From contig JAFDZW010000005.1 of assembly GCA_018266755.1 (NCBI GenBank), forward strand, positions 967,233-1,031,232: DNA of 64,000 nt. Direction: 5' to 3'. Both the position numbers and the translations under genes were made by a program. The stretch comes from Bacteroidota bacterium. Its GTDB lineage: Bacteria > Bacteroidota > Ignavibacteria > Palsa-1295. Shown piece after piece: positions 40,839-58,794 of the stretch; the first letter of the stretch is position 1; each line of letters opens with the position of its first letter. The notes below the pieces were generated by a model, which searched no databases, was not told the origin of the DNA, and saw nothing but the letters and a program-made list of their open reading frames with translations.

Positions 40839-43442
40839 ATGAAGGGTCACGCAATCTACAGATCCATCCGAGCATCTTCACGAGTCGTATGCTTGATGCT
40901 CTTATTCTTGACGGCTTGTTCTACTGAACCGGAGCTCAATCCCGTTCCACTCCCGGGTCTCGAACTTGGTGACTCAGTTCGTTTGGGCACGGCTGAGATC
41001 GGGCCTGGCGGCGGAACACTTGCCGATGATCTCGGTATTGGTCCAACGGTAACGGTACCTGCAAGTGCGTTTACAACGAGTCGGACTTGCACGCTTAGCC
41101 AAGCCTTGATCAAATCACAAACCTTTGGGGAGAACATCTACCCGGAAACGCCGCTGTATCGTCTCGATATCGGTACTGATTATCCCGCACGCAATATTGT
41201 GGTTCGCATCGCAGTGAAGATGAAGTCCGACCGATTCTATATGCCGTTCTATTTTGATGCGGTAACGCATCAGTTGGACGCGATTCCCATCTCGACCATC
41301 GACAATCAAAGCATCACGTTCGTCATCCGACACTCCGGTTCGATCTTCGTCAGTTCAATCGCTCGTACAGCACTGAAGGGAAAGATCACATCTGCTTTTG
41401 ATGTGGCACACGATGCATGGAACATTCCGAATGTGGGCACTTCTGCCTTCCCCAATGGGCTTGCCAGCGGCCTTTCGCTCGGCGCGCTCTGGTATTATTG
41501 TAGCAAGTGGATAACCACCGGAACATCCCTTGGGAGTGCATTCCAGGAACCGACGTACTCGAACGATACCCTTTGGATGGCGCACCCACGGAGTTTTCGC
41601 GCAGTGAACGCGATTGAATCGGCGTGTGCTTGGACGACAACGGCTACCAACCTGATCGAACATCTGACTGGCGGTGACAACACGCTTACTCGAAATGAGT
41701 TAGCCTATGCCTTACTTGCCACTCACAAACCACAGGCACTGTGCCTTACCAATCGTCTAATCACGGCGAGGGTCCCGATCGTCGTTACGGGCCTGAACGA
41801 GAATCTCGCCACCGTATACGACCCCTGCTATCCTGGTGCAACGGATCGCTCTATCGACGTGTCCGCAAAAGCAACGCAGGCTTATAGCACATCGTACACC
41901 GTTTCAAACTTAATACAGTCAGACGAGCACGAATTTCCCTTTATTAGTTATATCGGTGGCTATGCGATCCTGGATTATGCTACAATCGCAGCAGGATATT
42001 CAGCATCCGTCACCGGTGTTCCGCAAGACCTCTTTTCGGGCGTGCGGGCAGATCATGGTGTGATACGAACGGGAGACACCCTCCAGTGTATTGACCCCGC
42101 CATCCGGTTGGACTTCTCGGGCCGAACGAAGACGAGCATCTCGATTTATCTCAATGGCGCATTCCGGTCCTACTCGACAGGCGATGTAATCCCTATCAAG
42201 CGCGGAGAAAATGTGGTTGGGATTTATATGGATTCTGCGTCGCCATACGTGAACAAACGTACATGGGTTGGTTGGCAATGGCTGCACGCATCATTTGAAC
42301 CGTTGCTTATTACGATGAAGCCGACAAATCCGGTCTCTCACACCCGGGAGTACTTTGGAATTGTTTCTCCCTTGTACCAACAATCCGGAGTCACGTTCGA
42401 GTGGAATTTTGGCGATGGGACCACTGAGCAGCGCGCATACCCGAACGACACGATCTCACATGTGTACGACCACGAAGGAAGCTACCCTCTCACGATACAC
42501 ATCAGACCGAGCGCCGGCACGGTTCCGCAGGACTCCTTCTCACAAACGATAATTGTCAGTGCACCCGCTGTAGCCATCATACCATTGGATTCGACGTTGC
42601 CGTTCGTCGGAACGCCACAGGCGTTCGTCGTACAGGTATCTCCGAAACCCGAACAGCGGTTCAGGATTCGCTGGACGGTGGTGGGAGTCGGCGCAAACCA
42701 AGTGTTAGCGGATACAGCGTGGTGGGTTCATACATTTGCGAGCGCAGGCATGTACACGTTGCGAGCGGATCTACTCGATAGCAAAGACATCGTGTTTGCC
42801 TCTACAACGCGCACCATCCAAATTTCTCCGGCATTAAGCCCGCCAACAATCGCCGAACTTCAATCCAAGAGGAATCTCCTGGTCCGATTTACCGGCGATA
42901 TTCAGTTCGACGGCACCGTACAGTGGTACACGACATTTGTCTACGGAACGGGCAGTAGTCGTGACTCGGCAGCCAATCGGCTACAGTGGGACCAACCGGG
43001 GACGACATGCAGTCTGAAGTGGTCGACCTCTTGGAGTTCACACGTCGTTACCGATTCGATCTTCAACTTCTACCATGACGAATCCGACAGCCGATCCCTA
43101 TCGATTAGCATCCACTTCGCGACCGACTATTCTACCGTCTCGAATTTCGCATGTGCGTCATCTCATGCGTGGAGTGAATACTCCAACAGTGCCATGACCG
43201 AGAACTACAATACGAATTCGGATGAGAATGCCTTAGAGGGCAACTCCATCTCGTATCATGGTCGTAATAACGATACAATTGTCTACCGGCGCAGTGGCCC
43301 AATGGTAGAGCAACTCTTGTCAAAGATCGAGTATAAGGCATCTCTATACTACAAGCATGGGGCAAGCGGCCACGCCGACTATGTGAAAACGAATTGGTCT
43401 AACAGCGCCAAACCGCCGATTGTTGATATTCTCTTCTATTGA
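40839..43442 (+). CDS. large lipoprotein with a PKD domain
   Basis: Lipobox 'LFLTACS'. 'TFEWNFGDGTTEQRAYPNDTISHVYDHEGSYPLTIHI' is a PKD domain. Confidence 0.55.
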   Translation: MKGHAIYRSIRASSRVVCLMLLFLTACSTEPELNPVPLPGLELGDSVRLGTAEIGPGGGTLADDLGIGPTVTVPASAFTTSRTCTLSQALIKSQTFGENIYPETPLYRLDIGTDYPARNIVVRIAVKMKSDRFYMPFYFDAVTHQLDAIPISTIDNQSITFVIRHSGSIFVSSIARTALKGKITSAFDVAHDAWNIPNVGTSAFPNGLASGLSLGALWYYCSKWITTGTSLGSAFQEPTYSNDTLWMAHPRSFRAVNAIESACAWTTTATNLIEHLTGGDNTLTRNELAYALLATHKPQALCLTNRLITARVPIVVTGLNENLATVYDPCYPGATDRSIDVSAKATQAYSTSYTVSNLIQSDEHEFPFISYIGGYAILDYATIAAGYSASVTGVPQDLFSGVRADHGVIRTGDTLQCIDPAIRLDFSGRTKTSISIYLNGAFRSYSTGDVIPIKRGENVVGIYMDSASPYVNKRTWVGWQWLHASFEPLLITMKPTNPVSHTREYFGIVSPLYQQSGVTFEWNFGDGTTEQRAYPNDTISHVYDHEGSYPLTIHIRPSAGTVPQDSFSQTIIVSAPAVAIIPLDSTLPFVGTPQAFVVQVSPKPEQRFRIRWTVVGVGANQVLADTAWWVHTFASAGMYTLRADLLDSKDIVFASTTRTIQISPALSPPTIAELQSKRNLLVRFTGDIQFDGTVQWYTTFVYGTGSSRDSAANRLQWDQPGTTCSLKWSTSWSSHVVTDSIFNFYHDESDSRSLSISIHFATDYSTVSNFACASSHAWSEYSNSAMTENYNTNSDENALEGNSISYHGRNNDTIVYRRSGPMVEQLLSKIEYKASLYYKHGASGHADYVKTNWSNSAKPPIVDILFY

Positions 43443-44409: not shown

Positions 44410-46242
44410 ATGGCCGATATTTTCATCTCATACTCACGCAACGATTCGGAACAGGCCCTTGCCTTGGTCGATCGATTGCGCGCACATGGAATGACCGTCT
44501 GGATCGACCAGCACGGACTCGAAGCCGCGACGTCGTGGAGCAAGGAGATCGCGAACGCGCTGCAACAGTGCGATGTGATGCTCCTGCTGCTCTCCTCGAC
44601 GGCAGTGAGTTCGGTGAATGTCGCAAAAGAACTCTCTGCCGCATCCCAGCTCCATAAACGCATCGTCCCTGTCCAGCTCGAGCGTGTCGAACTGCAAGGC
44701 GAATTCCTCTACCATCTATCGGGGCTGCAGCGCGCGAAATACGACGACTTCGATTCGATCCTGCGGGCGGTGGCCAAAACAGATCAGGAAGTCTCACCCA
44801 ATACAACGAACTCGACCGAGCAAGCCCCGCCTCGTGCCCGAAAGACACGGCTTCGGGCTATCGTTGCTGCTTCGATCATTCTGGTGCTCGGCGCCGTAGG
44901 CTACTTCGCGTTCCGCCCGAGTTCATCCGGCAGTACGGCGAGCACGGTCAAGACGCTGTTGGTTCTGCCGTTCGAGAGTCTGAGCGCCGACAAAGAGAAC
45001 GAGTACTTCGCCGATGGCATGACGGCCACGCTAATCGATATGCTTGTCCCCGTGACCGACCTGCAGGTGGCCGACCGCAGCACGTCCATGGAATTCAAAT
45101 CGTCGAAGCGGGACGTCAAAGAAATCTCAAAACTGGTCGGATGCCGCTATATCGTCAACGGCACCGTGCAGCGTGAGGCCGACCGCATTTTGATCAATGC
45201 CCAAATGTCCGATGCCGAAACGGGATCGGTGCTCTTCAGCAAGTCCTTCTTTGGCTCATCACGCGATCTGTTCCAGTTGCAGCAACAGATCGCGCAAAAC
45301 ATTGTCGTAGAACTCCAACTGTCGCTTTCTACCGATTCGGTGTATGTGCCGCTGGGCGGGAAGCCCGCCAGTCCGGAAGCCTGGGACCTGTGCATGAGAG
45401 CTGACTACGAAGAGAGCCACAACCGCATCGATTCCTCGATCGCATTGTACGTACGTGCTACACAGTTTTCCCCATACTACGCACATCCGTATCTCCAGGC
45501 CGCGCGTGAATATGGCAACAAGTACATGGGCGACACCACCGCCACGCGGTCATTGGTGCTGGCAGACTCGTTTCTGGCGATCGGACGCAAACTTGATACC
45601 GCCCAACTATATTCGCATTTTGTTGGCAGTTGGATCGCAACGGTTCATCATGATTACGACCGAGCGATCTCCGAAGCGACCGCGTATCTGAAGAAGCAGC
45701 CCAGGCGCTCAGGCGGCTATTATCTGTTGGCTCTGGCATACGCTACTTCAAAACAATACGGCCTTGCTGCCGACAATTTCCTCGAGTCACTGAAGCGGGA
45801 TCCGACTGCGCCGCAAGACCGGTTCATGGTACTCTACTGTCTGTGGTTTGCGCATGATACCGTGCGATTGCATCAACAAGCGGCAGCGTCTATCCCGATC
45901 TTCGAAGCATGGCTCAAGTGGCACCCGGACGACAAATCCGTCAGCAACAATAGCATCCCGCTGGCATTGGTATGGTCCGGCCGAGGCGATGAAGCCTGCA
46001 AGCGGATGGAAGATCTGCTCAGGACCCCGAACGTCGACTCGCAGTACGTCCTGAATACCGCAGCGATCAGCGCCCTCAGTGGTAAGCTCGACCGAGCGAT
46101 GGAGATCATGCGGGGCAAGATCGCCCGCTCCGGCGTGCAGAGCGTCGACTTCGAACGCCCCTTCTTCGATAATCTCCGCAACCTCCCGGAATTTCAGTCA
46201 TGGGTAAAGCAGAAGGAAGCACTACCGAAGAAGCATGGCTGA
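44410..46242 (+). CDS. TIR-domain protein, paralog A: TIR – TM helix – TolB-N-terminal-like domain – TPR region
   Basis: 'MADIFISYSRNDSEQALALVDRLRAHGMTVWIDQHGLEAATSWSKEIANALQQCDVMLLLLSSTAVSSVNVAKEL' is a TIR_2-like domain. It is the only paralog with a hydrophobic segment 'LRAIVAASIILVLGAVGYFAF'. 'LLVLPFESLSADKENEYFADG...RYIVNGTVQ' is a TolB_N-like domain. Confidence 0.8.
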   Translation: MADIFISYSRNDSEQALALVDRLRAHGMTVWIDQHGLEAATSWSKEIANALQQCDVMLLLLSSTAVSSVNVAKELSAASQLHKRIVPVQLERVELQGEFLYHLSGLQRAKYDDFDSILRAVAKTDQEVSPNTTNSTEQAPPRARKTRLRAIVAASIILVLGAVGYFAFRPSSSGSTASTVKTLLVLPFESLSADKENEYFADGMTATLIDMLVPVTDLQVADRSTSMEFKSSKRDVKEISKLVGCRYIVNGTVQREADRILINAQMSDAETGSVLFSKSFFGSSRDLFQLQQQIAQNIVVELQLSLSTDSVYVPLGGKPASPEAWDLCMRADYEESHNRIDSSIALYVRATQFSPYYAHPYLQAAREYGNKYMGDTTATRSLVLADSFLAIGRKLDTAQLYSHFVGSWIATVHHDYDRAISEATAYLKKQPRRSGGYYLLALAYATSKQYGLAADNFLESLKRDPTAPQDRFMVLYCLWFAHDTVRLHQQAAASIPIFEAWLKWHPDDKSVSNNSIPLALVWSGRGDEACKRMEDLLRTPNVDSQYVLNTAAISALSGKLDRAMEIMRGKIARSGVQSVDFERPFFDNLRNLPEFQSWVKQKEALPKKHG

Positions 46243-47965
46243 TATTTTCATCTCGTACTCCCGCAACGACTCCGAGCAGGCTCTTGCCTTAGCCGAGCAA
46301 CTGCGCGCGAACGGATTGGACGTCTGGATCGACCAGCATGGCATCGAAGGGGCAACGAGTTGGAGCAAGGAGATCGCTAATGCGCTACAGGCCTGTCACA
46401 CCATGCTGCTGTTGCTGTCGCCCACCGCTGTTGCATCGAAGAATGTCGCGAAGGAACTCTCGGTCGCAACACAACTAAATAAGCATATTGTCCCGGTTCA
46501 GGTCGTTCGAACGACGCTTGAAGGCGAGTTCCTCTACCATCTCTCTGCGCTGCAACGCGTCAAGATAGCAGACGTAGATGCAATTCTCCGTGCGATCGCC
46601 GGCACTGCGCAGGATCGACCGGTGCGTCACGCACCTAAACCGATCGATGAACGGAAGTCGCTGATGATCCTGCCGTTCAAGGATCTCTCTCCGACAGCCG
46701 ACAACGGCTGGTTCGCCGATGGGATGGTCAGCGAACTCATCGACTCCCTTTCGCATATCAAGTCATTGCGGTTGGTGGACAAACAGACGACGAACGAGTA
46801 CAAGACCTATCAGGGCCACCTCGCCGACTATGCCCGCGAAATGGGCATCCGATTCTTCGTACAAGGCGACGTCCGGAAGTTCGGCGACCAGATCAAGATC
46901 TCGTGCACCTTGCTCGACATCGATACTGCCGATCACTTATGGCAGATCTCCCATAAGGGGACGATGTCCGACATCTTCGACATGCAGGAAGAGCTTGCGA
47001 GAAAAGTGGTCGATGGTCTGAAGCTGCATCTGCTCGCATCGGAAGAGAAGAAGCTTTCAAGCCGCGGCACCTCGAATGCCGAAGCGTATGAGATGTACTT
47101 GAAGGCCGAGGAATTCTATGACAAAGACACGAAAGTCTCAGTAGAATACGCCATGAAGGCGATCGAACGAAGCCTGGAGTTGGACCCAGATTTCCCGCAA
47201 GCGATGCTGCGGCGTGCGATCATTCTTGTTCGTTACCAACACGGATTTGGGGGTAGTGCGGAAATGCTCGATGAAGCCGAAGCCCTATTTGAAAGGGCAA
47301 AGAAAAAGCTCTCCCCTTCCGACGATTGGCGTGTTCTCGCCGGTCCGGGTATTCTGGCAATGGCGCGCGGCAATTTTGCATTGGCCGAATCGATCGCTCG
47401 TGAGAATGTCTCGATCGATCCGAACGATTATTACAGGCACAATGCACTGGCGTATTGTCTGTTCCTTCAAGGTCGGTACGAAGAGGTGCTCGTCGAACAT
47501 GAAGCATGTCTTGCGATCGTTCCTGAATCCTACAAATGTGCGCGCCAGATCGTCATGATGGCATGGAATATGGATCGGCCCGACCTCAAAGCTGATTATG
47601 CCCGGCGATTCATTCATCTGTTCCGGCGGAGAATGCAGCTCATGCCGAATGACGATGAAGCCTCCGTTCTCTATGGATTGTTACTGTTCTACCTCGGCCG
47701 CAGAGACGATGCACTCAGTCATCTCGACACGATCAGTGACGATCATATCACCGACGAATTGTCTTTTCGAATCCTCGCATGCCTTGCGGCACTTCTTGGC
47801 AGACCGGAGCGAGCAATCCGGTCGATGCAGTTGAGTGCTGAGATGGATCTGAACGAATGGCACCTGGCCTTGCTTAATAAGTCGGAGCTCGATTCGCTCA
47901 GGGACAGAGAAGACTTCCGTCGATTGGCAGAAGCTTGGAAAGCACGGTTGACGTCCAATGGCTGA
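46235..47965 (+). CDS. TIR-domain protein, paralog B (TIR – TolB_N-like – TPR), soluble
   Basis: 'MADIFISYSRNDSEQALALAEQLRANGLDVWIDQHGIEG', 'MILPFKDLSPTADNGWFADG'. The start ATG overlaps the upstream stop (ATGGCTGA). Confidence 0.8.
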   Translation: MADIFISYSRNDSEQALALAEQLRANGLDVWIDQHGIEGATSWSKEIANALQACHTMLLLLSPTAVASKNVAKELSVATQLNKHIVPVQVVRTTLEGEFLYHLSALQRVKIADVDAILRAIAGTAQDRPVRHAPKPIDERKSLMILPFKDLSPTADNGWFADGMVSELIDSLSHIKSLRLVDKQTTNEYKTYQGHLADYAREMGIRFFVQGDVRKFGDQIKISCTLLDIDTADHLWQISHKGTMSDIFDMQEELARKVVDGLKLHLLASEEKKLSSRGTSNAEAYEMYLKAEEFYDKDTKVSVEYAMKAIERSLELDPDFPQAMLRRAIILVRYQHGFGGSAEMLDEAEALFERAKKKLSPSDDWRVLAGPGILAMARGNFALAESIARENVSIDPNDYYRHNALAYCLFLQGRYEEVLVEHEACLAIVPESYKCARQIVMMAWNMDRPDLKADYARRFIHLFRRRMQLMPNDDEASVLYGLLLFYLGRRDDALSHLDTISDDHITDELSFRILACLAALLGRPERAIRSMQLSAEMDLNEWHLALLNKSELDSLRDREDFRRLAEAWKARLTSNG

Positions 47966-49703
47966 TATTTTTATCTCATACTCGCGCCACGATTCGGAGC
48001 AGGCTCTTGGTTTGGTCGCTCACTTGCGCGCGCAGGGTGTGGATGTCTGGATCGACCAGCACGGCATCGAAGGGGCGGCGAGTTGGAGCAAGGAGATCGC
48101 CAACGCACTGGAATCCTGCCATACGATGCTCCTGCTGCTTTCGCCGACGGCTGTCACATCGGAGAACGTTGCGAAGGAATTGGCGGCCGCGACGCAGCTC
48201 AAGAAACGCATTGTCCCGGTACAGGTCATCCGCACTGCCCTCAGCGGTGAATTTCTCTATCATCTCTCCGGCCTGCAGCGCGTGAAGATCGCGGACGTCG
48301 ACGGCATTCTGCGTGCGATCAATACGAGTAAGTCGTCGGCCATCCCGATTCAGCCGAAGGCTGTACAACCTGTTGACGAGCGCAAGAGCCTCATGATTCT
48401 GCCGTTCAAGGATCTCTCCCCGACCGCCGATAACGGCTGGTTCGCCGACGGCATCGTCAGCGAACTCATCGACTCGCTCTCGCGCGTGAAGTCACTGCGA
48501 TTGGTAGATAAACAGACAACGAGCGAGTACAAGACCTATCAAGGTCATTTAGCTGATTATGCTCGCGAGATGCGCATTCGCTACTTCCTGCAGGGCGACG
48601 TTCGGAAGTTCGGCGATCAGATCAAGATCTCTTGCACGTTGCTCGATATCGACACCGCCGATCACTTATGGCAGATCTCCCACAAAGGGACGATGTCCGA
48701 TATCTTCGACATGCAGGAAGAACTTGCGAGAAAAGTGGTCGATGGGCTGAAGGTGCACCTGCTCGCATCGGAAGAGAAGAAGCTTGCGAACCGGGGTACG
48801 TCGAATGCCGAAGCGTATGAGATGTACTTGAAATCCGCAGAGTTCTTCGGCAAGCACACCAAGGTCGGCACGGAGCATGCGCTCGCCTCGATCAGGCGTG
48901 CGCTGGAGCTCGACCCCAACTTTCCACAGGCCATGCTTCGCTGTGCGATCATTCTGATCACATTGCATCAACATTTTGGATGGCCGGCCAACGTTCTGGA
49001 TGAGGCAGACCGTCTGCTTGAGGCTGCGCGGCTGGTGCTTTCCCCTACCGATGACTGGCGGGTGTTGGGGACACACGCGTTGCGATTGTGGGTATCCGGC
49101 GATCCTGATGCAGCCGAAGCATTGATGCGTGAGAACCTTCGCATCGATCCGGCGGACACGGATCGCCTCAACCAGCTCGGAGTCTTCCACTCGGTGCAGC
49201 ATCGGTTTTCAGAAGCGTTGGTCGAATTCGAAGCAATATTCGCCCTCACCCCAGATTCCTATCGCGCCGCCAGAACGTTGATCGGGACAGCATGGGCACT
49301 TCGAGATCGCGACCGCAAAGTGCAGTACGCACACCAGTTTTTCGATCTCGTGGTTGCGCGCATGAGCACCATGCCGGATGATGACGATGCTCGTATCGTC
49401 TATGGGCTGTTGCTGGTCTATCAAGGCAGGATCGACGAAGCACGGCAACAGCTCCATGCATTTCCGGACGATCACATCGTCATCGAAGAATCCTACCGCA
49501 ACCTTGCCGGGCTCGCCGCGATGGTCGGTGAAGGCGACCGCGCCATTCGTCTCTTGCAGACGTTCACCGAGCGGTTCGGGACAACGCTCACTGCTGAGCA
49601 TCTGCTGTGGTTTAGTGATCAGGAGTTCGAACCCATCAGCGATCGAGAAGAGTTTATTCGCCTCGAAGAAGAGTGGACACGCCGCGTACATTCTAATGGC
49701 TGA
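47958..49703 (+). CDS. TIR-domain protein, paralog C. Very similar to B across the TIR and TolB_N-like domains and divergent in the C-terminal TPR region
   Basis: 'MADIFISYSRHDSEQALGLVAHLRAQGVDVWIDQHGIEG'. Same ATGGCTGA junction at both ends. Confidence 0.8.
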   Translation: MADIFISYSRHDSEQALGLVAHLRAQGVDVWIDQHGIEGAASWSKEIANALESCHTMLLLLSPTAVTSENVAKELAAATQLKKRIVPVQVIRTALSGEFLYHLSGLQRVKIADVDGILRAINTSKSSAIPIQPKAVQPVDERKSLMILPFKDLSPTADNGWFADGIVSELIDSLSRVKSLRLVDKQTTSEYKTYQGHLADYAREMRIRYFLQGDVRKFGDQIKISCTLLDIDTADHLWQISHKGTMSDIFDMQEELARKVVDGLKVHLLASEEKKLANRGTSNAEAYEMYLKSAEFFGKHTKVGTEHALASIRRALELDPNFPQAMLRCAIILITLHQHFGWPANVLDEADRLLEAARLVLSPTDDWRVLGTHALRLWVSGDPDAAEALMRENLRIDPADTDRLNQLGVFHSVQHRFSEALVEFEAIFALTPDSYRAARTLIGTAWALRDRDRKVQYAHQFFDLVVARMSTMPDDDDARIVYGLLLVYQGRIDEARQQLHAFPDDHIVIEESYRNLAGLAAMVGEGDRAIRLLQTFTERFGTTLTAEHLLWFSDQEFEPISDREEFIRLEEEWTRRVHSNG

Positions 49704-51438
49704 TATTTTCATCTCATACTCACGCAAAGACCTCGACCAAGCGCTTTCGCTTGTCGAACGACTCAAGGCGGCCGGTTTTGATGTCTGGATCGACCGGCAC
49801 GGGATCGAGGGGGCGAATAGTTGGAGCAAGGAGATCGCCAATGCACTCGAATCGGCCTCGATCTTCTTGTTGCTACTCTCCGAATCTTCCGTCGCATCGC
49901 CGAATGTCTCGAAAGAACTCGGCGTCGCGACCCTGCTACAAAAACGGATCGTCCCGCTGCGACTGGACCGTGTCGAACTCCGAGGTGAGTTCTTGTATCA
50001 CTTGGCGAATCTGCAGTACGTTCGGTTCGAGGAGTTCGATGCGCTCGTGAGCGTTTTGAGTGGCAAGCCGACTCCGCGCGGAGTGACACCCGCAAAGAGC
50101 TCGGACGACCGCAAGAGCCTGATGATCCTGCCCTTCGACGACCTCTCGCCTACCGCGGACAACGGCTGGTTCGCCGATGGCATTGTCAGCGAAATGATCA
50201 GCGCTCTTTCGAACGTCAAATCATTGGTCGTCACTGACCCGCAGACGACCAAGGACTTCAAACGCTATAAAGGCGCGCTTCCTGCCTATGCGAAGGAGAT
50301 GTCGATCCGATATTTCGTGCATGGCGATGTGAGGAAGTTCGGGGACAGCATCAAGATCACCGCCCGTCTTCTGGATATTGCGACTGGAGATTACCTGTGG
50401 CAAGAGTCCATGAAAGGCACGATGAGCGACATCTTCGAGATCCAGGAGCATGTAGCGAAAAAGGTGCTTGATGGACTGGCGGCGATCCTTTCGACCGAAG
50501 AGACATCGACACTTTCCACGCACGGAACCAAGAACACCGACGCCTATGAACTATTCTTGAAGGCCTGCGAGTACTATGCACGAAACACGCTGGAAGGATT
50601 TCGACTTACTGCTCAGCTCTGCGACGAAGCGATCCGCCTTGAGCCCGAATATGTTCAGCCGATCAATTACAAGGCGCTCGCACTACTAGCGATCTATCGG
50701 CATTACGAACGAGACCCTCGGCTGTTGGGCGAAGCGGAGCGACTCTGTCAGGAGGCACTGCGGCTCAACGCTGGTTTTCGCCAAGCATACTTCCCTTTGT
50801 CGCAGATACAGTTGTATCGTGGCAAGATCGCTCAAGCAGAGGAGACCGCAATCGAATACATCAGGAAGGCGCCTGATGACTTTCACAGCCATTTCACGCT
50901 CGCTTTCGTCTACGGTCAAAGCAACAACTACTCCAGAGCGATCCCGCTCATGGAAGAAGCGATTCGTCTGCGGCCCGGCGATCTTGTCTTGTTGTGGAAC
51001 CTTGTGGTGGTGTGCGACAGTGCAGGCGCGAAAGAGAAATGCGCTCAGTGGGCTGAAGAAGCACTTCCGTACTTCGAACGCTATACTAAGCTGCATCCCG
51101 ATCATGAAGACAAACGTCTCATTCATGCGGCGCTTCTGCAGATGAGCGGAAGAACGGATGCCGCCCATGCTGCCGCGACAAGGCTCAAGGCCTCTCGAGA
51201 TGCGGTGACTCTCTACAATACTGCCTGTCTCTTTGGGAAGGTCGATGACAAGAACGAAGCACTCGCGACACTCAAAATGTCTATCGAGACAGGGATGAAG
51301 GACGTCGATGCACTAAAGCACTTTCTTGCCGATACTGATCAGGGGGTCGCGTCACTCTCGGGGACCCCGCAATTCGAAGAGGTGCTACGTTTGATTGAAT
51401 CGCTAGAAGGCGAAACCGATCCAAGAACGCATGGCTGA
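49696..51438 (+). CDS. TIR-domain protein, paralog D (TIR – TolB_N-like – TPR)
   Basis: 'MADIFISYSRKDLDQALSLVERLKAAGFDVWIDRHGIEG'. Start trimmed from ORF 49378..51438 to the Met overlapping the stop of C. Confidence 0.8.
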   Translation: MADIFISYSRKDLDQALSLVERLKAAGFDVWIDRHGIEGANSWSKEIANALESASIFLLLLSESSVASPNVSKELGVATLLQKRIVPLRLDRVELRGEFLYHLANLQYVRFEEFDALVSVLSGKPTPRGVTPAKSSDDRKSLMILPFDDLSPTADNGWFADGIVSEMISALSNVKSLVVTDPQTTKDFKRYKGALPAYAKEMSIRYFVHGDVRKFGDSIKITARLLDIATGDYLWQESMKGTMSDIFEIQEHVAKKVLDGLAAILSTEETSTLSTHGTKNTDAYELFLKACEYYARNTLEGFRLTAQLCDEAIRLEPEYVQPINYKALALLAIYRHYERDPRLLGEAERLCQEALRLNAGFRQAYFPLSQIQLYRGKIAQAEETAIEYIRKAPDDFHSHFTLAFVYGQSNNYSRAIPLMEEAIRLRPGDLVLLWNLVVVCDSAGAKEKCAQWAEEALPYFERYTKLHPDHEDKRLIHAALLQMSGRTDAAHAAATRLKASRDAVTLYNTACLFGKVDDKNEALATLKMSIETGMKDVDALKHFLADTDQGVASLSGTPQFEEVLRLIESLEGETDPRTHG

Positions 51439-51550
51439 TATGTTCATCTCGTACTCACACAAAGACCTTGAGCAGGAAATGTCGCTTGTCGAGCGATTCA
51501 TTTCACCAGACGCCCTGATTTTCTCATTCCATCTATCATTATGTCACTGA
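51431..51550 (+). pseudogene. 5' remnant of a further TIR paralog (MADMFISYSHKDLEQEMSLVERF..., 39 codons then stop)
   Basis: Starts at the same ATGGCTGA junction on the stop of paralog D. Keeps ~22 aa of the TIR N-terminus, then diverges and terminates where the BNR gene begins. Confidence 0.6.
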
Positions 51551-53367
51551 AACACCTTGCCCTGATAGTATTGATCTCTTCTGCCCGAATTGCGACGGCG
51601 CAGGAGGTTGCACCGCAGACTCCGGAATCCGACCGTGAACTCAGTCGTGCTCTGAAAGTCGCGAAGCTCGGCGATCGACTCTATCGGGAATGCGACGTAT
51701 TTCGGCGCGTGATCGATCATCAACTATCTCAACAGCCAGCATCGCAAGTATCGAGCGTTCTATCGACCGAACCACTTCAGTCGCTCGGCGACACATCACT
51801 GGATATTACGCATTCCTCTTCAGACGAGTCTGAGACAACCGTCGCGATCAGCCGTACGAATCCAAACATGATCGTTGTCGGGTTCAATGACGCGGCACAA
51901 ATAGCGAATGGGATAGGCATGACCGCCTGCGTTTCCACCGATGCCGGAAATACGTGGTCACGACAGCATTTGCCAAAAGTGAATTTCCACGGAGCAAACG
52001 CGTGGTGCGATCCTATTCTCACGTGCGATGATTCCGGCATGTTCTACTATGCCTTCCTCATCATCACACCCAACATGTCGCTGAGTGATATTATGGTCGG
52101 GCGCAGCAAAGACGGTCGGAATTGGGTGCTGGGGTCACCGGTTGTCGGTGACACGATCGCACCAACCAAACTGCAGGATAAACCCACGATCGCTGTCGAT
52201 CGCGATCCGAACAGCCCATACCACGGGAGGCTCTATATTGCATGGTCGGAATATCCGTCACTCGCCGACACATTGTGGGATGGGATCAATTATGTGGCAT
52301 ATAGCGATGATCATGGCGTCAGTTGGTCAAAGCCGTTAGAGTATAGCACCGCATTCGGACACTTTGCAACACTGCGTATCGGCAAAGGCGGAACGGTGTT
52401 CATTTCTTCGAATAACTTTCGCGACGAGACCGTTGCCTCGTTCGCCGTGGAAGTCTCGCATGACGGCGCTAAGACGTTCTCTGAGTATCCGATCGCGATG
52501 CGACAAAAAGCATATCCCGTCGATCATAATGTCTATATGTATGCCATGTTAAAGGGGTCGAAGGGTTTCCGAATCGACCCCTACATTAGCTTCGATCTCG
52601 ATCCCGAAACAAATGATCTGTTTGCCGTGTACGGATCGTACGACACGATCAAGAAAGCCGCCCGCGAATTCATCGTTCGTTCGACCGACGAAGGCGTGTC
52701 GTGGTCATCCCCCATTCAGGTAGGCGATCCAACGCTCTTAGGACTCGACCATTGTATGCCGTGGGTGAGCTTCGACCCCTCTACAAAAAAGGCATACGTA
52801 ACAATGTATAGTTCTGAAGAGGATACAGCCAATGTGCTTATGCGGAGAGTTCGATACTCCTTCGATACACCAACGAACGCCGAGCCGCTCGGGACCCGAC
52901 TTTTCAACCCACTCCTCGCTTCAGTCGCGACCGGGGGTCGTTGGGCTAATATGGGCGACTATACGTATAGCGATGCCTTCGGTGGCACGTTCGTCGATGT
53001 CTGGGCCGAGAACCGTCCACCCAGCTACAATGACGGCGATGTCTTCGCATACGTTTCTTCACCGGCGACACACGCCGGTGTGATCCGTCAACTCAATGCA
53101 CCAACGATCGCGATCAGTGACCTCAGCCCGAATCCGGTGCATGGAGATCGGATCAGCTTCACACTGACCGGCGACCGTTCGAGGGAAGTACTCATTCATG
53201 TGCAAGACGTTCTGGGGCACGAAGTCTTGAGTGCCACTGCAAAGCTGGATGCAGGTACTCTCACAGATGTAACACTCGATATCGGAACGCTCGCCGCCGG
53301 GAGCTATCTCATAGTTATCGATGGCAATGACGAATCTGTCTGCCGGCGTTTTGTCATTGTTCGATAA
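51541..53367 (+). CDS. T9SS cargo: BNR/Asp-box repeat sialidase-like glycosyl hydrolase, sitting inside the TIR array
   Basis: Signal peptide. Asp-boxes 'STDAGNTWS', 'SDDHGVSWS', 'STDEGVSWS'. C-terminal 'LSPNPVHGD...GSYLIVIDGNDESVCRRFVIVR' T9SS CTD. Confidence 0.7.
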   Translation: MSLKHLALIVLISSARIATAQEVAPQTPESDRELSRALKVAKLGDRLYRECDVFRRVIDHQLSQQPASQVSSVLSTEPLQSLGDTSLDITHSSSDESETTVAISRTNPNMIVVGFNDAAQIANGIGMTACVSTDAGNTWSRQHLPKVNFHGANAWCDPILTCDDSGMFYYAFLIITPNMSLSDIMVGRSKDGRNWVLGSPVVGDTIAPTKLQDKPTIAVDRDPNSPYHGRLYIAWSEYPSLADTLWDGINYVAYSDDHGVSWSKPLEYSTAFGHFATLRIGKGGTVFISSNNFRDETVASFAVEVSHDGAKTFSEYPIAMRQKAYPVDHNVYMYAMLKGSKGFRIDPYISFDLDPETNDLFAVYGSYDTIKKAAREFIVRSTDEGVSWSSPIQVGDPTLLGLDHCMPWVSFDPSTKKAYVTMYSSEEDTANVLMRRVRYSFDTPTNAEPLGTRLFNPLLASVATGGRWANMGDYTYSDAFGGTFVDVWAENRPPSYNDGDVFAYVSSPATHAGVIRQLNAPTIAISDLSPNPVHGDRISFTLTGDRSREVLIHVQDVLGHEVLSATAKLDAGTLTDVTLDIGTLAAGSYLIVIDGNDESVCRRFVIVR

Positions 53368-53382
53368 TTTCCCGAACGACCC

Positions 53383-55116
53383 GTGGCTGATATCTTCATC
53401 TCATACTCACGCAAAGACGCCGAAGCGGCGCTCGCATTAGCGGAGCGTCTGCGCAGTGACGGCGCGAGCGTGTGGATGGATACAGCCGCATTGGCGGCAG
53501 CCGAGACCTGGAGCGCGGAGATCGTCACTGCGATCGAAGGGTGTACGTTCTTCATCGTCCTGATCTCACCGAATGCTGTGGCGAGCAGAAACGTGACCAA
53601 AGAGGTGTCGCTCGCTTCGGAGTCGAAGAAGACGATCATCCCGATCGAGCTCGTGCGGTGCGAACTCAATCCCGCAATGAAGTATGCGCTCGCCGGCCTG
53701 CAGAAGGTGAAGCTCCACGATGAAGTAACACTGCACCGCAGCCTTTCCAAACTGGGACTCGCTCCGGGAGTTCATACTGCACCGTCGGCTCCCCAAGCAG
53801 TAGCATCGCCATCTCGTGCGGACTCTGGCCCCACACGCCTTGCCGTGTTTCCGTTCGAAGATCAATCGCCCACACGCGACCACGAGTGGTTCAGCGATGG
53901 GCTCACCGATGAACTGATCTCGATGCTCAACAAGGTCGATGCGCTGCTCGTACTCGATCGCAACTCGACGCGCGCATATCGCGATGCGAAGATGACGACC
54001 AAGCAGATCGCTCGTGAACTGCAGGTACGATATGTGATCGTCGGTGCCGTCCGCAAAGCGGGCGAGAAGATCAGGGTTCAGGCATCGCTCATCGATCCCG
54101 AGACCGGAAAGGTGCTGTGGGATGAGAAGTTCAACGGCACCATGGACGATATCTTCGAGATCCAGGAGAAGACGGCCCGAGATATTGTCGAAGGACTGAA
54201 GATCACGCTCACCCCGGCAGAACGCAGCTCACTCGATCAGAAGATGACGGACTCGCCCGAGGCATACGAACTGCTCATGCGAGCGAGCCGCAAACTCGAT
54301 GAGGAAATGGATCATGCCGGAGGAACGCGCTTGGCAGAACGCGCCTTGGAGATTGATCCGAACTGTGCCGCAGCCCTTTATCTGATCTCGGTCGCGACGT
54401 CGAACCAATATCGAATCGGTAACCGATCCGATGCGTCACTGCTCGAACGCGAACGCGGACTCGTCAAGCAACTGATGACACTTGCTCCTGAGACGCACTA
54501 TTGTTATATCGCCCGAGCAAATTATTACCTGAACATCGACGAGACGGAGCTCGCCGTGGAAATGGCGGAGCGAGCCGTCAGCGTTAGTCCGAAACGCCCC
54601 CGATCTCACGGTGTGCTTGGGTTTATTTATTCGCGTCTCAATCGTCCGGCCGATGCGGTCAGAGAATTTCGTCGTGCGATCGAGCTCGATCCGAACTCCG
54701 GTACTGATCATGTCAGCCTCTTGACCGTCCTCTTTGTCAGTGGAGCGCCGCTCGAACAATTGCGCGCCCAGTACCCGAACGTCAAACGACACCTTGACGC
54801 ACGGATAGCTGAGTACCCCGACTCGCTCAGGATTCGGACGGAACTGCTGAATGCTGCCATCCAAGCGCAAATCCCGGACGATGCCGTAGCAGTTGCTGAA
54901 GCCATCCTCGCCAGAGGAGATGTGGACGCTGATACCGAATACTGTTGCGCCGAGGCCTTCGTACTCGCCGGCGATCTCGAGCGAGGCCGCACACATCTTC
55001 GCTCCGCGATCGATCGAGGCCAGGACACCTTCACCATTTGGGATGAATCCGGTTTCCTCCCGCTCAACGGCACGCCGGAATACGACTTCCTGGTTGCACA
55101 TATTGCAAGAGACTAA
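53383..55116 (+). CDS. TIR-domain protein, paralog F (TIR – TolB_N-like – TPR). GTG start
   Basis: '(V)ADIFISYSRKDAEAALALAERLRSDGASVWMDTAALAAAETW', 'LAVFPFEDQSPTRDHEWFSDGLTDELI'. Confidence 0.75.
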   Translation: MADIFISYSRKDAEAALALAERLRSDGASVWMDTAALAAAETWSAEIVTAIEGCTFFIVLISPNAVASRNVTKEVSLASESKKTIIPIELVRCELNPAMKYALAGLQKVKLHDEVTLHRSLSKLGLAPGVHTAPSAPQAVASPSRADSGPTRLAVFPFEDQSPTRDHEWFSDGLTDELISMLNKVDALLVLDRNSTRAYRDAKMTTKQIARELQVRYVIVGAVRKAGEKIRVQASLIDPETGKVLWDEKFNGTMDDIFEIQEKTARDIVEGLKITLTPAERSSLDQKMTDSPEAYELLMRASRKLDEEMDHAGGTRLAERALEIDPNCAAALYLISVATSNQYRIGNRSDASLLERERGLVKQLMTLAPETHYCYIARANYYLNIDETELAVEMAERAVSVSPKRPRSHGVLGFIYSRLNRPADAVREFRRAIELDPNSGTDHVSLLTVLFVSGAPLEQLRAQYPNVKRHLDARIAEYPDSLRIRTELLNAAIQAQIPDDAVAVAEAILARGDVDADTEYCCAEAFVLAGDLERGRTHLRSAIDRGQDTFTIWDESGFLPLNGTPEYDFLVAHIARD

Positions 55117-55117
55117 C

Positions 55118-56839
55118 GTGGCAGATATTTTCATTTCATACTCACGCAAAGATTCCGAGCAGGCACTCGCACTTGCCGATCGGCTACGCTCGAGCGGAGC
55201 GGATGTCTGGATGGACACCGCATCGCTGACGGCGGCAGAAACATGGAGCGCGGAGATAGTGTCGGCGATCCGCAGTTGTCACACGTTCATCGTGATGCTC
55301 TCGCCGAATTCGGTCACTTCGAAGAATGTGGTGAAAGAAGTCGGGCTGGCGTCGGAGCGCGACAAACGGATCATCCCGATCGTGCTCGAGCCATGCGTTC
55401 TCAGCGATGCAATGCAGTACGCACTCGCGGGCATTCATCACGTAAAGATCAACGACCGGGACGCATTGGACCGAGCATTAAGCAAGATCGGCCTCGTCGC
55501 AACCACCCCCGTCGCTGAAGCACCGAGCGACCCGGTATCTGCATTCCCCGACAACCTCATTCGCATCGCCGTGCTGCCGTTCGATGACCAATCCCCTGCC
55601 CATGACCACGAATGGTTCAGCGATGGCCTGACCGACGAACTGATCTTGACATTGAATAAGCTCGATGCACTCTTTGTGCTTGACCGGAAATCTTCGCAAC
55701 TCTACAAGGATGCTCGCATCTCCGTGAAGCAGATCGCGGCCGAGCTCAACGTCCGCTACATCATTAGCGGCGCCGTGCGCAAAGCCGGACAGAACATTCG
55801 CGTGCAGGTGTCACTCATAGAGGCGACATCGGGCGTAACGCTCTGGGATGAAAAATTCTCGGGGACGATGGATGACATCTTTGAGATCCAGGAAAGAACC
55901 GCGTTCGACATTGCCGAAGGCTTGAAGCTGAAGCTCACGCCGGCTGAAATGCTCCTGCTCGAAGAAAAGACAACAACATCTTCTGAAGCGTATCGTCTGC
56001 TTCTGCAAGCCCGGGAAAAGAACAACAGCTTCGCCGACAGTGCCGGCGCCATTGAGGATCTCAAGCATGCCATCAGGATCGATCCCGGATTCCTTCCCGC
56101 ATACGCGATACTCTCTGTCGCGTATGCAAACGAATATCGCAGCTCGAACCGTACCAACGCAACCCTCCTCGATCTCTCGAAACGAGCAATGGACGAGATC
56201 AGGCAAATCGATCCGAACTCGCCCTTCTACTATGGTCCATGCGCCAATTACTATCTGAATATCGGCGAGCGCGAACTCGCATTGGACATGGCGAACAAGC
56301 TCGTTGAGCTTCGGCCAAAACAATTTGTGTCGTACGCGATCCTCGGATTCATGCAGGATTCGCTCGGCAACTACCGCGAGGCGATGCGCGCGTTCCAACG
56401 GGCCATCGAGCTCGATCCGGCAACGGCCACGAACTATGTGAAGCTGGCTACCGCGGCGTTCCGACTGGGCGAAATGGATGCGATCGAATGGTGTTGGGAG
56501 AAAGGGCGGCCGTTGTACGAGCGCTTGATCGCAGCACACCCGGAACGGATGTGGGCCAAACTGGAGTACTTGTTTCTCTCCCTCTTTGCTGGGTATGTTG
56601 ACATTGCTGTAGAAATGGCAGAATCGATCGAACGCTTACCTGACCTCCCTCTCGAGACCCATACGCAGCTTGCCGCAGTCTGGATGGCCAATGGCCAGAT
56701 CGAGCGCGGGACCAAAGCGTTACAGTATGCGATCGACGGAGGGTATGTGGCGTTCGAAGGCATGGACCGACGTCTCTATCGCGCGATCGAAGGCACACCG
56801 TTGTACCAGTTCGTCCTCGATCACATTGTACGACCCTGA
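55118..56839 (+). CDS. TIR-domain protein, paralog G (TIR – TolB_N-like – TPR). GTG start. Closest to F
   Basis: '(V)ADIFISYSRKDSEQALALADRLRSSGADVWMDTASLTAAETW', 'IAVLPFDDQSPAHDHEWFSDGLTDELI'. Start inferred inside ORF 54893..56839. Confidence 0.75.
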   Translation: MADIFISYSRKDSEQALALADRLRSSGADVWMDTASLTAAETWSAEIVSAIRSCHTFIVMLSPNSVTSKNVVKEVGLASERDKRIIPIVLEPCVLSDAMQYALAGIHHVKINDRDALDRALSKIGLVATTPVAEAPSDPVSAFPDNLIRIAVLPFDDQSPAHDHEWFSDGLTDELILTLNKLDALFVLDRKSSQLYKDARISVKQIAAELNVRYIISGAVRKAGQNIRVQVSLIEATSGVTLWDEKFSGTMDDIFEIQERTAFDIAEGLKLKLTPAEMLLLEEKTTTSSEAYRLLLQAREKNNSFADSAGAIEDLKHAIRIDPGFLPAYAILSVAYANEYRSSNRTNATLLDLSKRAMDEIRQIDPNSPFYYGPCANYYLNIGERELALDMANKLVELRPKQFVSYAILGFMQDSLGNYREAMRAFQRAIELDPATATNYVKLATAAFRLGEMDAIEWCWEKGRPLYERLIAAHPERMWAKLEYLFLSLFAGYVDIAVEMAESIERLPDLPLETHTQLAAVWMANGQIERGTKALQYAIDGGYVAFEGMDRRLYRAIEGTPLYQFVLDHIVRP

Positions 56840-58383: not shown

Positions 58384-58794
58384 ATGCTCCGCCGATTCAA
58401 CAATAACCCGATCAACAAAGACCGCCGTCGCGAGTTACGCTCGAATCCTACGCGCGCGGAATCAGAATTGTGGCACGGACTTCGCAATCATCGCTCCGGG
58501 TACAAATTCCGCCGCCAGCAAGGGCTCGGGCCATTCATCGTGGATTTCTACTGCCCCGCATTTCATCTCGCGGTAGAAGTCGATGGCGCAACGCATGATT
58601 CGCTCGAGCAACAAGAGTACGATTCGCGAAGGAGCGAATACCTGCGTGCAAATGGAATCGACGCCATCCGCTTCACAGACGGCGAAGTGCTGTGGAGCGT
58701 AGATATCTGCGTAGCGAAGATCGCCGAACGGATCGAAGAGATCAAACGAGGACGTGGTGGCACATCGGAATCAACCACCCCAACCCCGCCTTGA
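58384..58794 (+). CDS. DUF559 endonuclease-domain protein (Vsr/PD-(D/E)xK-like)
   Basis: 'LRSNPTRAESELWHGLRNHRSGYKFRRQQGLGPFIVDFYCPAFHLAVEVDGATH' is the DUF559 signature. The last ~9 codons (STTPTPP*) are encoded by the left end of MITE copy 2. Confidence 0.75.
   Translation: MLRRFNNNPINKDRRRELRSNPTRAESELWHGLRNHRSGYKFRRQQGLGPFIVDFYCPAFHLAVEVDGATHDSLEQQEYDSRRSEYLRANGIDAIRFTDGEVLWSVDICVAKIAERIEEIKRGRGGTSESTTPTPP

What the first reader, a model, noticed from the sequence alone, without database searches (positions are those of the whole stretch)
44410..56839. Catalytic-position glutamate conserved in all six TIR domains
In plant and bacterial TIR NADases the catalytic Glu sits in the alphaC helix motif (for example 'SxWCLxEL'). 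The aligned position in all six paralogs is 'S.NV.KEL' or 'S.NV.KEV', giving K-E-L in A–D and K-E-V in F and G. The Glu is invariant even though the surrounding TPR regions have diverged extensively.

Conservation of the putative catalytic residue across old and recent duplicates suggests that enzymatic NAD+ cleavage or cyclic-ADPR-type signalling is retained, rather than a purely scaffolding role.
Basis: inference. Interest (0 to 1): 0.6.

Follow-up and report, generated by a model that had tools for sequence, protein, structure and literature searches.

The report
Conserved glutamate in tandem TIR sensors
Six neighbouring genes encode sensor proteins whose TIR domains all keep the glutamate that TIR enzymes use to cleave NAD+, so enzyme activity is plausible but unproven, and they lack the neighbouring tryptophan needed to make cyclic ADP-ribose signals.

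Summary
All six paralogs (A-D, F, G) carry S68-x-N70-V71-x-K73-E74-[L/V] in a strong TIR_2 domain. Sequence and profile alignments place E74 on the catalytic Glu of SARM1 (E642), BtTir and Cat1. It lies in predicted helix alphaC. E74 is invariant in 140/140 family TIR domains from about 26 Kapaibacterium/Ignavibacteriota MAGs.

- The Glu is necessary but not sufficient: the scaffold TIR of TLR2 has it too.
- The Trp of the WxxxE motif, required for ADPR cyclisation, is Asn in nearly every family member. This argues against cADPR-isomer signalling.
- There are no "recent duplicates". Synonymous sites are saturated in every pair.

Each protein is a TIR domain fused to a CadC-type sensor plus TPR solenoid. 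In relatives that sensor module carries kinase, cyclase or wHTH domains instead, so the TIR sits in the output position. Paralog A has a transmembrane helix; B-G are soluble. Genes overlap by 8 nt (ATGGCTGA). Arrays of 6-8 such genes recur in related genomes without a conserved partner effector.

Best reading: sensor-regulated, non-cyclising NAD+ hydrolases (confidence about 0.5). This is an uncharacterised variant of a known kind. The flagged Glu conservation itself is ordinary.

The parts
44410..46242 (+). Paralog A (610 aa): TIR_2 domain, one transmembrane helix (aa 150-168, nt 44857-44913), then CadC-like sensor and TPR. This is the membrane-anchored subtype.
   Evidence: Pfam TIR_2 6e-23. 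Kyte-Doolittle maximum 2.39 at aa 150-168, preceded by RARKTRLR. About 30 orthologs of 607-625 aa all have the helix and SxNVxKE.
46235..47965 (+). Paralog B (576 aa), soluble TIR + CadC-like sensor + TPR. Its start overlaps the stop of A by 8 nt (ATGGCTGA).
   Evidence: Full-length AF2 model has pLDDT 92.9. Foldseek match to the CadC periplasmic domain 3ly7, TMt 0.65.
47958..49703 (+). Paralog C (581 aa), soluble. 8-nt overlap with B.
49696..51438 (+). Paralog D (580 aa), soluble. The true start is the ATG at 49696; the longer ORF from 49378 is an artefact. 8-nt overlap with C.
51431..51550 (+). Fossil of a seventh paralog. It has the same ATGGCTGA overlap with the stop of D, reads MADMFISYSHKDLEQEMSLVERF..., then decays to a stop after 39 codons.
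   Evidence: Matches TIR profile positions 1-24 at E 2.4e-6.
51541..53367 (+). Gene E. It interrupts the array and is not a family member: a BNR/sialidase-like protein with a T9SS C-terminal sorting domain.
   Evidence: Pfam BNR_2 and Por_Secre_tail, both below Pfam gathering cut-offs.
53383..55116 (+). Paralog F (577 aa, GTG start), soluble.
55118..56839 (+). Paralog G (573 aa, GTG start at 55118, 2 nt after the stop of F), soluble.
44611..44634 (+). Motif S68-V-N70-V-A-K-E74-L in A. The Glu codon is 44629-44631.
46436..46459 (+). Motif SKNVAKEL in B. The Glu codon is 46454-46456.
48159..48182 (+). Motif SENVAKEL in C. The Glu codon is 48177-48179.
49897..49920 (+). Motif SPNVSKEL in D. The Glu codon is 49915-49917.
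53584..53607 (+). Motif SRNVTKEV in F. The Glu codon is 53602-53604.
55319..55342 (+). Motif SKNVVKEV in G. The Glu codon is 55337-55339.

Best explanation
The six genes, plus a truncated seventh, belong to a large lineage-specific family in Kapaibacterium/Ignavibacteriota. Each protein is a one-polypeptide sensor. An N-terminal TIR_2 domain occupies the output position of a CadC-type sensor module: an alpha/beta 'TolB-like/FlgO-like' subdomain followed by a TPR-like solenoid.

Shown:
- the TIR fold;
- E74 aligned to the catalytic Glu of TIR NADases and invariant across the family;
- its hydrogen-bond partner Ser (S7 = SARM1 S567) invariant;
- strong purifying selection on the TIR domain against fast-diverging sensor regions;
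- Asn in place of the WxxxE Trp;
- translationally coupled tandem arrays that recur in related genomes without a conserved partner gene.

Inferred:
- the TIR is a working NAD+ (or related nucleotide) glycohydrolase that releases nicotinamide and linear ADPR rather than a cyclic ADPR isomer;
- like other TIR enzymes, it is switched on when ligand binding to the sensor/TPR part drives TIR-TIR assembly;
- paralog A reads a periplasmic signal and B-G read cytoplasmic ones;
- the divergent sensor domains give the array a repertoire of specificities.

Whether the outcome is anti-phage abortive infection or physiological signalling is open.
For: - TIR_2 at E 1e-21 to 5e-24 in all six.
- TIR model pLDDT 87.5 with alphaC at residues 69-80. 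Foldseek TM 0.73-0.81 to the NADase TIRs of SARM1, SPARTA and active AbTir 7uxu.
- E74 aligns to SARM1 E642, BtTir and Cat1.
- E74 in 120/120 and 140/140 family domains; S7 in 140/140. S7 equals SARM1 S567, which lies 2.6 A from E642.
- dN/dS of the TIR is 0.07-0.56 with saturated dS.
- The sensor fold matches the CadC periplasmic domain: NCBIfam PRK10153 positions 206-493 and Foldseek 3ly7-3lya, TMt 0.64-0.65.
- The same sensor module occurs behind Ser/Thr kinase, adenylate cyclase and wHTH domains. The TIR therefore sits where enzymatic or signalling outputs sit.
- No ThsA-like or other conserved partner lies next to the arrays in the window or in L001, L002, L077 and L078.
- The Asn-for-Trp change predicts a non-cyclase.
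- W43 is invariant and aligns with SARM1 F603 / AbTir L177, the other wall of the base-binding site. It co-occurs with N70 in 42 of 53 domains.
Against: - No activity data exist for any family member.
- The Glu is also present in the scaffold TIR of TLR2.
- Loss of the Trp reduced or abolished NADase activity in AbTir W204A, SARM1 W638A, L6 W131A and ROQ1 W82A. A natural Asn could therefore mean low or no NAD+ turnover.
- The BB loop is predicted with low confidence, and its Gly is only 116/140 conserved.
- There are dozens of copies per genome (at least 17 in one MAG), and neighbours in other genomes are housekeeping genes. That is unusual for a toxic NAD-depleting effector.
- Residue-level 3D superposition on a ligand-bound TIR was not possible.
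Confidence: 0.5

Rival explanations
1. Non-catalytic scaffold. The TIR domains act only as homotypic or heterotypic assembly modules, as in TLRs and their adaptors. They would bring array members or unknown partners together, and the Glu/Ser pair is kept for structural reasons.
For: - TLR2 keeps the same Glu and the Trp. TLR4 and MyD88 TIRs lack NADase activity (PMC7282519).
- The family has lost the WxxxE Trp, whose mutation cripples several TIR enzymes.
- 8-nt overlaps suggest stoichiometric co-production, which would fit hetero-oligomers.
- Very high copy number per genome.
Against: - Human adaptors that are pure scaffolds lack the Glu (PMC11745336). Here E74 and S7 are invariant in 140/140 domains.
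- The closest sequence and fold matches are enzymatic TIRs: Cat1, BtTir, SARM1, AbTir and SPARTA.
- Homologous sensor modules carry enzymatic or DNA-binding outputs.
Confidence: 0.25
2. Signal-generating TIR of the Thoeris ThsB or plant type. It would make a cADPR isomer or another ADPR conjugate that activates an effector encoded elsewhere in the genome.
For: - Best NCBIfam TIR hit is the Thoeris type III ThcB4 model, at 35-52 bits against a cut-off of 220.
- Weak ThsB_TIR Pfam and PADLOC ThsB hits.
- Glu retained.
Against: - No ThsA-like, SLOG or Macro effector lies next to any array inspected.
- All cyclase TIRs tested have an aromatic residue where this family has Asn.
- The HMM hits cover the TIR domain only and fall far below family cut-offs.
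Confidence: 0.1
3. A TIR enzyme with a different substrate: NAD-capped RNA decapping, 2',3'-cNMP synthetase or nuclease activity on nucleic acids, or NADP+ or another nucleotide.
For: - Bacterial TIRs including AbTir can remove NAM from NAD-capped RNA (PMC10937652, abstract).
- Plant TIRs are reported as 2',3'-cNMP synthetases (one search list).
- The altered base-binding wall (N70 and W43) could reflect a changed substrate.
Against: Nothing in the sequence points to nucleic-acid binding. This rests entirely on analogy.
Confidence: 0.1

Closest known systems
SARM1 TIR domain (NAD+ hydrolase; PDB 6o0q, 7nak, 8d0x series)
   Same: TIR fold with TM 0.73-0.79 and 25-27% identity. 'FISY(S/R)R' in betaA, with Ser567 equal to S7. 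'V-x-K-E' in alphaC, with E642 equal to E74. Both have a sensor/regulatory region fused to a TIR output.
   Different: SARM1 has W638 where the family has N70. SARM1 has a CC-loop insertion that is absent here. Its regulatory part is ARM + SAM rather than CadC-like + TPR, and it is eukaryotic.
Bacterial cyclase TIRs AbTir / BtTir (PDB 7uwg, 7uxu, 7uxr)
   Same: TIR_2-type domain; profile E 5e-9 to 5e-8. The Glu aligns. The model fits the active AbTir filament subunit at TM 0.73.
   Different: They have WxxxE and make 2'cADPR. Here the motif is NxxxE, which predicts no cyclisation. They carry coiled-coil N-termini, not a C-terminal sensor.
Cat1 (CRISPR-associated TIR 1; PDB 9mud)
   Same: Best sequence match among solved structures: E 1.5e-10 over residues 1-121. 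'SDWCWDEL' aligns to S68-L75. It is a sensor-coupled TIR effector.
   Different: Cat1 has the Trp. Its sensor is a CARF-type domain for cyclic oligoadenylate, not CadC/TPR.
E. coli CadC periplasmic sensor domain (PDB 3ly7-3lya), ToxR-like one-component receptors
   Same: The post-TIR region matches the fold at TMt 0.64-0.65 over about 302 columns, and matches the PRK10153 HMM at positions about 206-493. Paralog A has the same N-in, single-TM, sensor-out topology.
   Different: The output is TIR, not a winged-helix DNA-binding domain. B-G and most family members have no TM helix, so the sensor is cytoplasmic. Extra TPR repeats extend the C-terminus.
Toll-like receptor TIR domains (e.g. TLR2, PDB 1fyw)
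   Same: TIR fold. The Glu sits at the same aligned position, 'SEWCKYEL'. An N- or C-terminal repeat sensor is fused to a TIR.
   Different: TLR TIRs signal as scaffolds and keep the Trp. Sequence similarity is weaker than to the enzymatic TIRs.

Membership tests
TIR-domain NAD+ glycohydrolases (SARM1 / AbTir / plant TIR type) | TIR (flavodoxin-like) fold | tested here: met
   Pfam TIR_2 at E 1e-21 to 5e-24. AF2 pLDDT 87.5. Foldseek TM 0.7-0.8 to many TIR structures.
TIR-domain NAD+ glycohydrolases (SARM1 / AbTir / plant TIR type) | Catalytic Glu in helix alphaC | tested here: met
   E74 aligns to SARM1 E642, the BtTir Glu and the Cat1 Glu. It lies in predicted helix 69-80. Present in 140/140 family domains. 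This is by sequence alignment; no residue-level 3D superposition was available.
TIR-domain NAD+ glycohydrolases (SARM1 / AbTir / plant TIR type) | Conserved Ser at the end of betaA that hydrogen-bonds the catalytic Glu (SARM1 S567) | tested here: met
   S7 in 'DIFISYS' aligns to 'DVFIS567Y'. Present in 140/140. Its role is taken from preprint 10.1101/2025.04.09.647920.
TIR-domain NAD+ glycohydrolases (SARM1 / AbTir / plant TIR type) | Aromatic residue four positions before the Glu (WxxxE; AbTir W204, SARM1 W638) | tested here: not met
   Asn in all six paralogs, in 118/120 homologs and in 136/140 domains. The closest other TIR domains mostly have Y, F or W. This residue is essential for cyclisation and important for activity.
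TIR-domain NAD+ glycohydrolases (SARM1 / AbTir / plant TIR type) | Intact BB loop with conserved Gly (AbTir G174, SARM1 G601) | tested here: inconclusive
   G36 is Gly in 116/140 domains. The loop alignment to SARM1 contains a gap. Loop pLDDT is about 67, and below 50 in the full-length model.
TIR-domain NAD+ glycohydrolases (SARM1 / AbTir / plant TIR type) | Measured Glu-dependent NAD+ cleavage | not testable with these tools
   Needs biochemistry.
Thoeris ThsB-type signalling TIR | Adjacent ThsA-type effector with a signal-binding domain | tested here: not met
   Window neighbours are T9SS cargo, a methyltransferase, NmrA, DUF559 and IetAS. Arrays in L001, L002, L077 and L078 have unrelated neighbours.
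Thoeris ThsB-type signalling TIR | Match to ThsB/ThcB family models above their cut-offs | tested here: not met
   NF058526 scores 35-52 bits against a cut-off of 220. PF08937 is marginal at 19.5-22 bits against 21.2. PADLOC hits cover the TIR domain only.
CadC/ToxR-like transmembrane one-component regulators | CadC-type sensor fold C-terminal to the output domain | tested here: met
   Foldseek 3ly7/8/9/a at TMt 0.64-0.65, rmsd 4.7 A. PRK10153 partial HMM hits at E down to 1e-11.
CadC/ToxR-like transmembrane one-component regulators | N-terminal winged-helix DNA-binding output | tested here: not met
   The N-terminus is TIR_2. wHTH versions exist only as distant homologs of the sensor part.
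CadC/ToxR-like transmembrane one-component regulators | Single TM helix between output and sensor | tested here: inconclusive
   Present in A and its approximately 30 orthologs. Absent in B-G and in 0/120 B-type homologs.
STAND/NLR-like TIR immune sensors (Avs, bacterial TIR-NLR) | Central STAND NTPase (NACHT/NB-ARC) between TIR and repeats | tested here: not met
   No NTPase domain in Pfam or NCBIfam scans. The full-length model shows TIR, linker, alpha/beta subdomain and TPR only.

The most novel reading that the evidence does not exclude
These arrays would represent an undescribed class of signal or immune receptors. In it, a TIR enzyme with a rewired base-binding pocket is the output of CadC-type sensors. 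The rewiring is NxxxE in place of WxxxE, with an invariant Trp supplied from the BB-loop/alphaB side. Translationally coupled paralogs, one membrane-anchored and the rest soluble, would co-assemble through their TIR domains into mixed active sites. Many different inputs would then converge on one NAD-derived output, possibly a product not yet seen for TIRs.
Probability: 0.15. Interest if true: 0.7.

Novelty: new variant of a known kind. Interest (0 to 1): 0.38.

Why it matters
The flagged feature, a conserved catalytic-position Glu in bacterial TIR_2 domains, is what one expects and adds little on its own.

The family behind it is more useful. It has hundreds of members confined to one poorly studied phylum-level lineage. 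It is a natural NxxxE variant of the WxxxE motif under strong purifying selection. The TIR is fused to a sensor module that elsewhere drives kinases, cyclases and transcription factors. The genes sit in overlapping tandem arrays.

If the TIRs are active, they would give a natural test of what the alphaC Trp contributes to chemistry, hydrolysis versus cyclisation. They would also be an example of a TIR used as a general one-component output domain rather than only as an anti-phage effector.

Tried and rejected
- Recent duplication or gene conversion as the cause of TIR conservation: rejected. TIR nucleotide identity is 54-77% with pS 0.52-0.74 in all pairs.
- A known defence system: PADLOC gave only TIR-domain-level hits to SAVED-TIR, Aga TIR-PNTD and ThsB models, with no full-length match.
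- PDB entry 9m0n/9umd, a 'Tetratricopeptide repeat protein' with an N-terminal TIR, looked like a possible characterised TIR-TPR analogue. No paper was found, and its alignment could not be displayed because it ranks low.
- The representative-library search was dominated by multi-TIR proteins. It did not extend the family, but it gave the background residue distribution at positions 43, 70 and 74.
- An NAD-salvage link: a NAMPT gene sits between two arrays in L078, but tblastn found it in only 1 of 78 loci and not in the window. I treat it as anecdotal.
- Literature searches for Kapabacteria+TIR and TIR+CadC/TolB-like found nothing relevant.


Full report
**Observation.** The interval 44410-56839 holds seven long + strand ORFs. 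Six are paralogs that begin MADIF or VADIF:
- A 44410-46242
- B 46235-47965
- C 47958-49703
- D 49696-51438. The real start is the ATG at 49696; the listed ORF from 49378 is an upstream extension.
- F 53383-55116 (GTG start)
- G 55118-56839 (GTG start)

The seventh ORF, E (51541-53367), is unrelated. It is a BNR-like protein with a T9SS sorting tail.

All six paralogs hit Pfam TIR_2 at E 1e-21 to 5e-24. A MAFFT alignment has no gaps in the first 100 columns and shows S68, N70, V71, K73 and E74 invariant. The motifs are SVNVAKEL, SKNVAKEL, SENVAKEL, SPNVSKEL, SRNVTKEV and SKNVVKEV.

**Is it more than chance?** Among the six paralogs alone, 41 of about 105 TIR columns are invariant, so one more invariant column means little. 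The wider family settles it.
- A search with B found more than 856 homologs, mostly from Candidatus Kapabacteria / Bacteroidota MAGs. The window itself is a 1.81 Mb contig of a 'Bacteroidetes bacterium' MAG.
- In the 120 best homologs, E74 is 120/120, S68 120/120, V71 120/120 and N70 118/120.
- A scan of species-representative genomes found at least 517 encoded relatives. The best 80 all come from about 26 Kapaibacterium/Ignavibacteriota/'Bacteroidota' MAGs.
- In 140 unique TIR domains from those loci, E74 is 140/140, S7 140/140, W43 139 and N70 136, with H in 3 and S in 1.

Codon analysis shows synonymous sites saturated in every pair and region (pS 0.51-0.81). TIR dN/dS is 0.07-0.56. Amino-acid identity falls from 46-82% in the TIR to 32-94% in the middle domain and 16-51% in the TPR region. 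The conservation therefore reflects purifying selection. It is not recent duplication or gene conversion, and none of the duplicates is recent.

**Is E74 at the catalytic position?**
- phmmer of the B TIR against PDB sequences aligns 'KN-VAKEL' to SARM1 'KDWVHKEI' and 'SKNVAKEL' to BtTir 'KNWTEYEL'.
- A 25-sequence family profile gives Cat1 (9mud, E 1.5e-10), BtTir, SARM1 and AbTir as top hits. It aligns E74 to the Glu of Cat1 'SDWCWDEL', BtTir and SARM1.
- Counting along the SARM1 chain reproduces the literature numbering S567, S574, S578, W638 and E642, so E74 equals E642 and S7 equals S567.
- An AF2 model of B residues 1-130 (pLDDT 87.5) puts E74 in helix 69-80, which is alphaC after betaC 56-61.
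- The model matches the TIRs of SARM1, SPARTA and the active AbTir filament at TM 0.73-0.81.

The tools return no residue-level structural alignment.

**What the Glu does and does not imply.** Pure scaffold adaptors (MyD88, MAL, TRIF, TRAM) lack the Glu (PMC11745336), so its retention is meaningful. It is not sufficient, though. The TLR2 TIR aligns 'SEWCKYEL' onto S68-L75 with the same Glu. I recalled that sequence from memory and verified it as identical to PDB 1fyw. TLR4 and MyD88 TIRs lack NADase activity (PMC7282519).

A second catalytic-pocket residue is kept. SARM1 S567 lies 2.6 A from E642 and is needed for activity (preprint 10.1101/2025.04.09.647920). It corresponds to the invariant S7.

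A third residue is not kept. The Trp of the WxxxE motif (AbTir W204, SARM1 W638) is Asn throughout the family. Manik et al. (preprint 10.1101/2022.05.07.491051) report the following:
- W204 contacts the base of the NAD+ mimic.
- W204A lowers activity and drops 2'cADPR from 93% to 24%.
- L6 W131A and ROQ1 W82A are inactive, and SARM1 W638A is weaker.
- Every cyclase TIR examined has an aromatic residue there, whereas ADPR-producing or inactive TIRs are more variable.

In the 462 TIR domains of the 150 best representative hits, the position is mostly Y (273), F (36), W (16) or H (16). Asn is essentially the signature of this family. Simple hydrolysis, an altered substrate, or loss of activity all remain possible.

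One possibly compensating feature is the invariant W43. It aligns with SARM1 F603 / AbTir L177, the opposite wall of the base site. W at 43 goes with N at 70 in 42 of 53 domains, while F or Y at 43 goes with an aromatic residue at 70. This correlation is not phylogenetically corrected, and the alignment crosses a loop gap. I treat it as inference only.

**What the proteins are.**
- NCBIfam places the post-TIR region on the periplasmic part of CadC (PRK10153 positions about 206-493) and on TPR models.
- A full-length AF2 model of B (pLDDT 92.9) shows a TIR, a disordered linker (125-134), an alpha/beta subdomain (141-261) and a helical solenoid.
- Foldseek matches it to the CadC periplasmic sensor domain (3ly7/8/9/a, TMt 0.64-0.65) and to generic TPR proteins.
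- Homologs of the sensor part carry Ser/Thr kinase, adenylate cyclase or winged-helix N-termini instead of TIR. The TIR therefore occupies the output slot of a modular one-component sensor.
- Paralog A has a transmembrane helix (aa 150-168) preceded by a basic stretch. That places the TIR inside the cell and the sensor outside. About 30 orthologs share this arrangement.
- B-G and 0/120 B-type homologs have no such helix, so they are cytoplasmic.

**Array organisation.**
- A/B, B/C and C/D overlap by the same 8 nt, ATGGCTGA, which carries the stop of one gene and the start of the next.
- The same sequence follows D and opens a 39-codon fossil of a seventh paralog: MADMFISYSHKDLEQEMSLVERF.... 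It precedes and slightly overlaps the start of gene E (51541).
- Arrays of six to eight overlapping paralogs recur in related genomes: L001 has six, L002 eight, L077 eight, and L078 seven plus two. Their neighbours differ (LexA, GroES/EL, T9SS cargo) and there is no conserved partner gene.
- One MAG has at least 17 copies at six loci.
- PADLOC recognises only the TIR domain, and there is no STAND NTPase.

**Interpretation.** The most economical reading is a family of sensor-regulated TIR outputs that retain the core catalytic dyad. They probably hydrolyse NAD+ without cyclising and are activated by sensor-driven TIR assembly. I put this at about 0.5. Rivals are:
- a purely scaffolding TIR (0.25);
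- a signal-producing TIR with a remote effector (0.1);
- a TIR acting on another substrate, such as NAD-capped RNA (0.1).

Defence versus physiological signalling is unresolved. An IetA/IetS defence pair lies 2.7 kb downstream in a low-GC patch. Against that, arrays in other genomes sit among housekeeping genes, and the copy number is far above that of typical defence systems.

**Novelty.** I found no paper on this family. GenBank names the proteins 'TIR domain-containing protein' or, for one A-type ortholog, 'FlgO family outer membrane protein'. JGI names them 'adenylate cyclase' or 'TolB-like protein'. The flagged feature itself is ordinary for bacterial TIR_2 domains. The NxxxE signature, the CadC-type fusion and the overlapping arrays make the family a new variant of a known kind.

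Noticed in passing
window 51431-51550: Fossil of a seventh TIR paralog. The ATGGCTGA overlap with the stop of D is intact. It reads MADMFISYSHKDLEQEMSLVERF and then decays to a stop, preceding and slightly overlapping the start (51541) of the unrelated T9SS-cargo gene E. The array appears to have been broken by insertion or deletion here.
   Followed up: yes
window 46235-46242, 47958-47965, 49696-49703, 51431-51438: Consecutive paralogs share an identical 8-nt overlap, ATGGCTGA: ...(H/N)G-stop of one gene and M-A-D of the next. The same 8-nt overlap spacing is seen in arrays in other genomes (L001, L002, L077, L078). This implies translational coupling.
   Followed up: partly
window 44857-44913 (paralog A, aa 150-168): Only paralog A has a transmembrane helix between the TIR and the sensor. 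A-type orthologs (about 30, 607-625 aa) all have it and often share contigs with soluble paralogs. Their position within arrays is not fixed: first in the window, third in L077, last in L078.
   Followed up: yes
window 59591-63026: An IetA (AAA ATPase, PADLOC E 2e-76) and IetS (S8 subtilase, E 7e-45) anti-phage defence pair lies in a low-GC patch (0.48 against about 0.55), 2.7 kb downstream of the TIR array.
   Followed up: partly
window 58384-58794: A DUF559 / Vsr-like endonuclease-fold ORF (Pfam E 2e-26) lies between the NmrA-like gene and the IetAS pair. It gives a weak hit to a methyl-directed restriction enzyme model.
   Followed up: no
L078 14180-15634 (- strand): A nicotinamide phosphoribosyltransferase gene (NAMPT_N + NAPRTase) sits between two TIR arrays. 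It would recycle the nicotinamide that a TIR NADase releases. It was found in only 1 of 78 loci and not in the window, so it may be coincidence.
   Followed up: yes
window 36113-37759, 40839-43442, 51541-53367; also L001 13700-16531, L077 1326-3116: Genes for T9SS-sorted, PKD or BNR surface proteins repeatedly flank or interrupt the TIR arrays, both in the window and in related genomes. It is unclear whether this reflects function or just their abundance in these genomes.
   Followed up: no
representative proteins P0121-P0136: The highest-scoring relatives of this TIR domain in the global library are giant proteins (up to about 2300 aa) with 5-7 TIR domains each. Most carry Y/F-x-x-x-E. Their origin and function were not examined.
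   Followed up: no
PDB 9m0n / 9umd: A solved 824-aa 'Tetratricopeptide repeat protein' has an N-terminal TIR that matches the family profile (E 6e-4, residues 2-79). It may be a characterised TIR-TPR analogue. No paper was found and no alignment was obtainable.
   Followed up: partly
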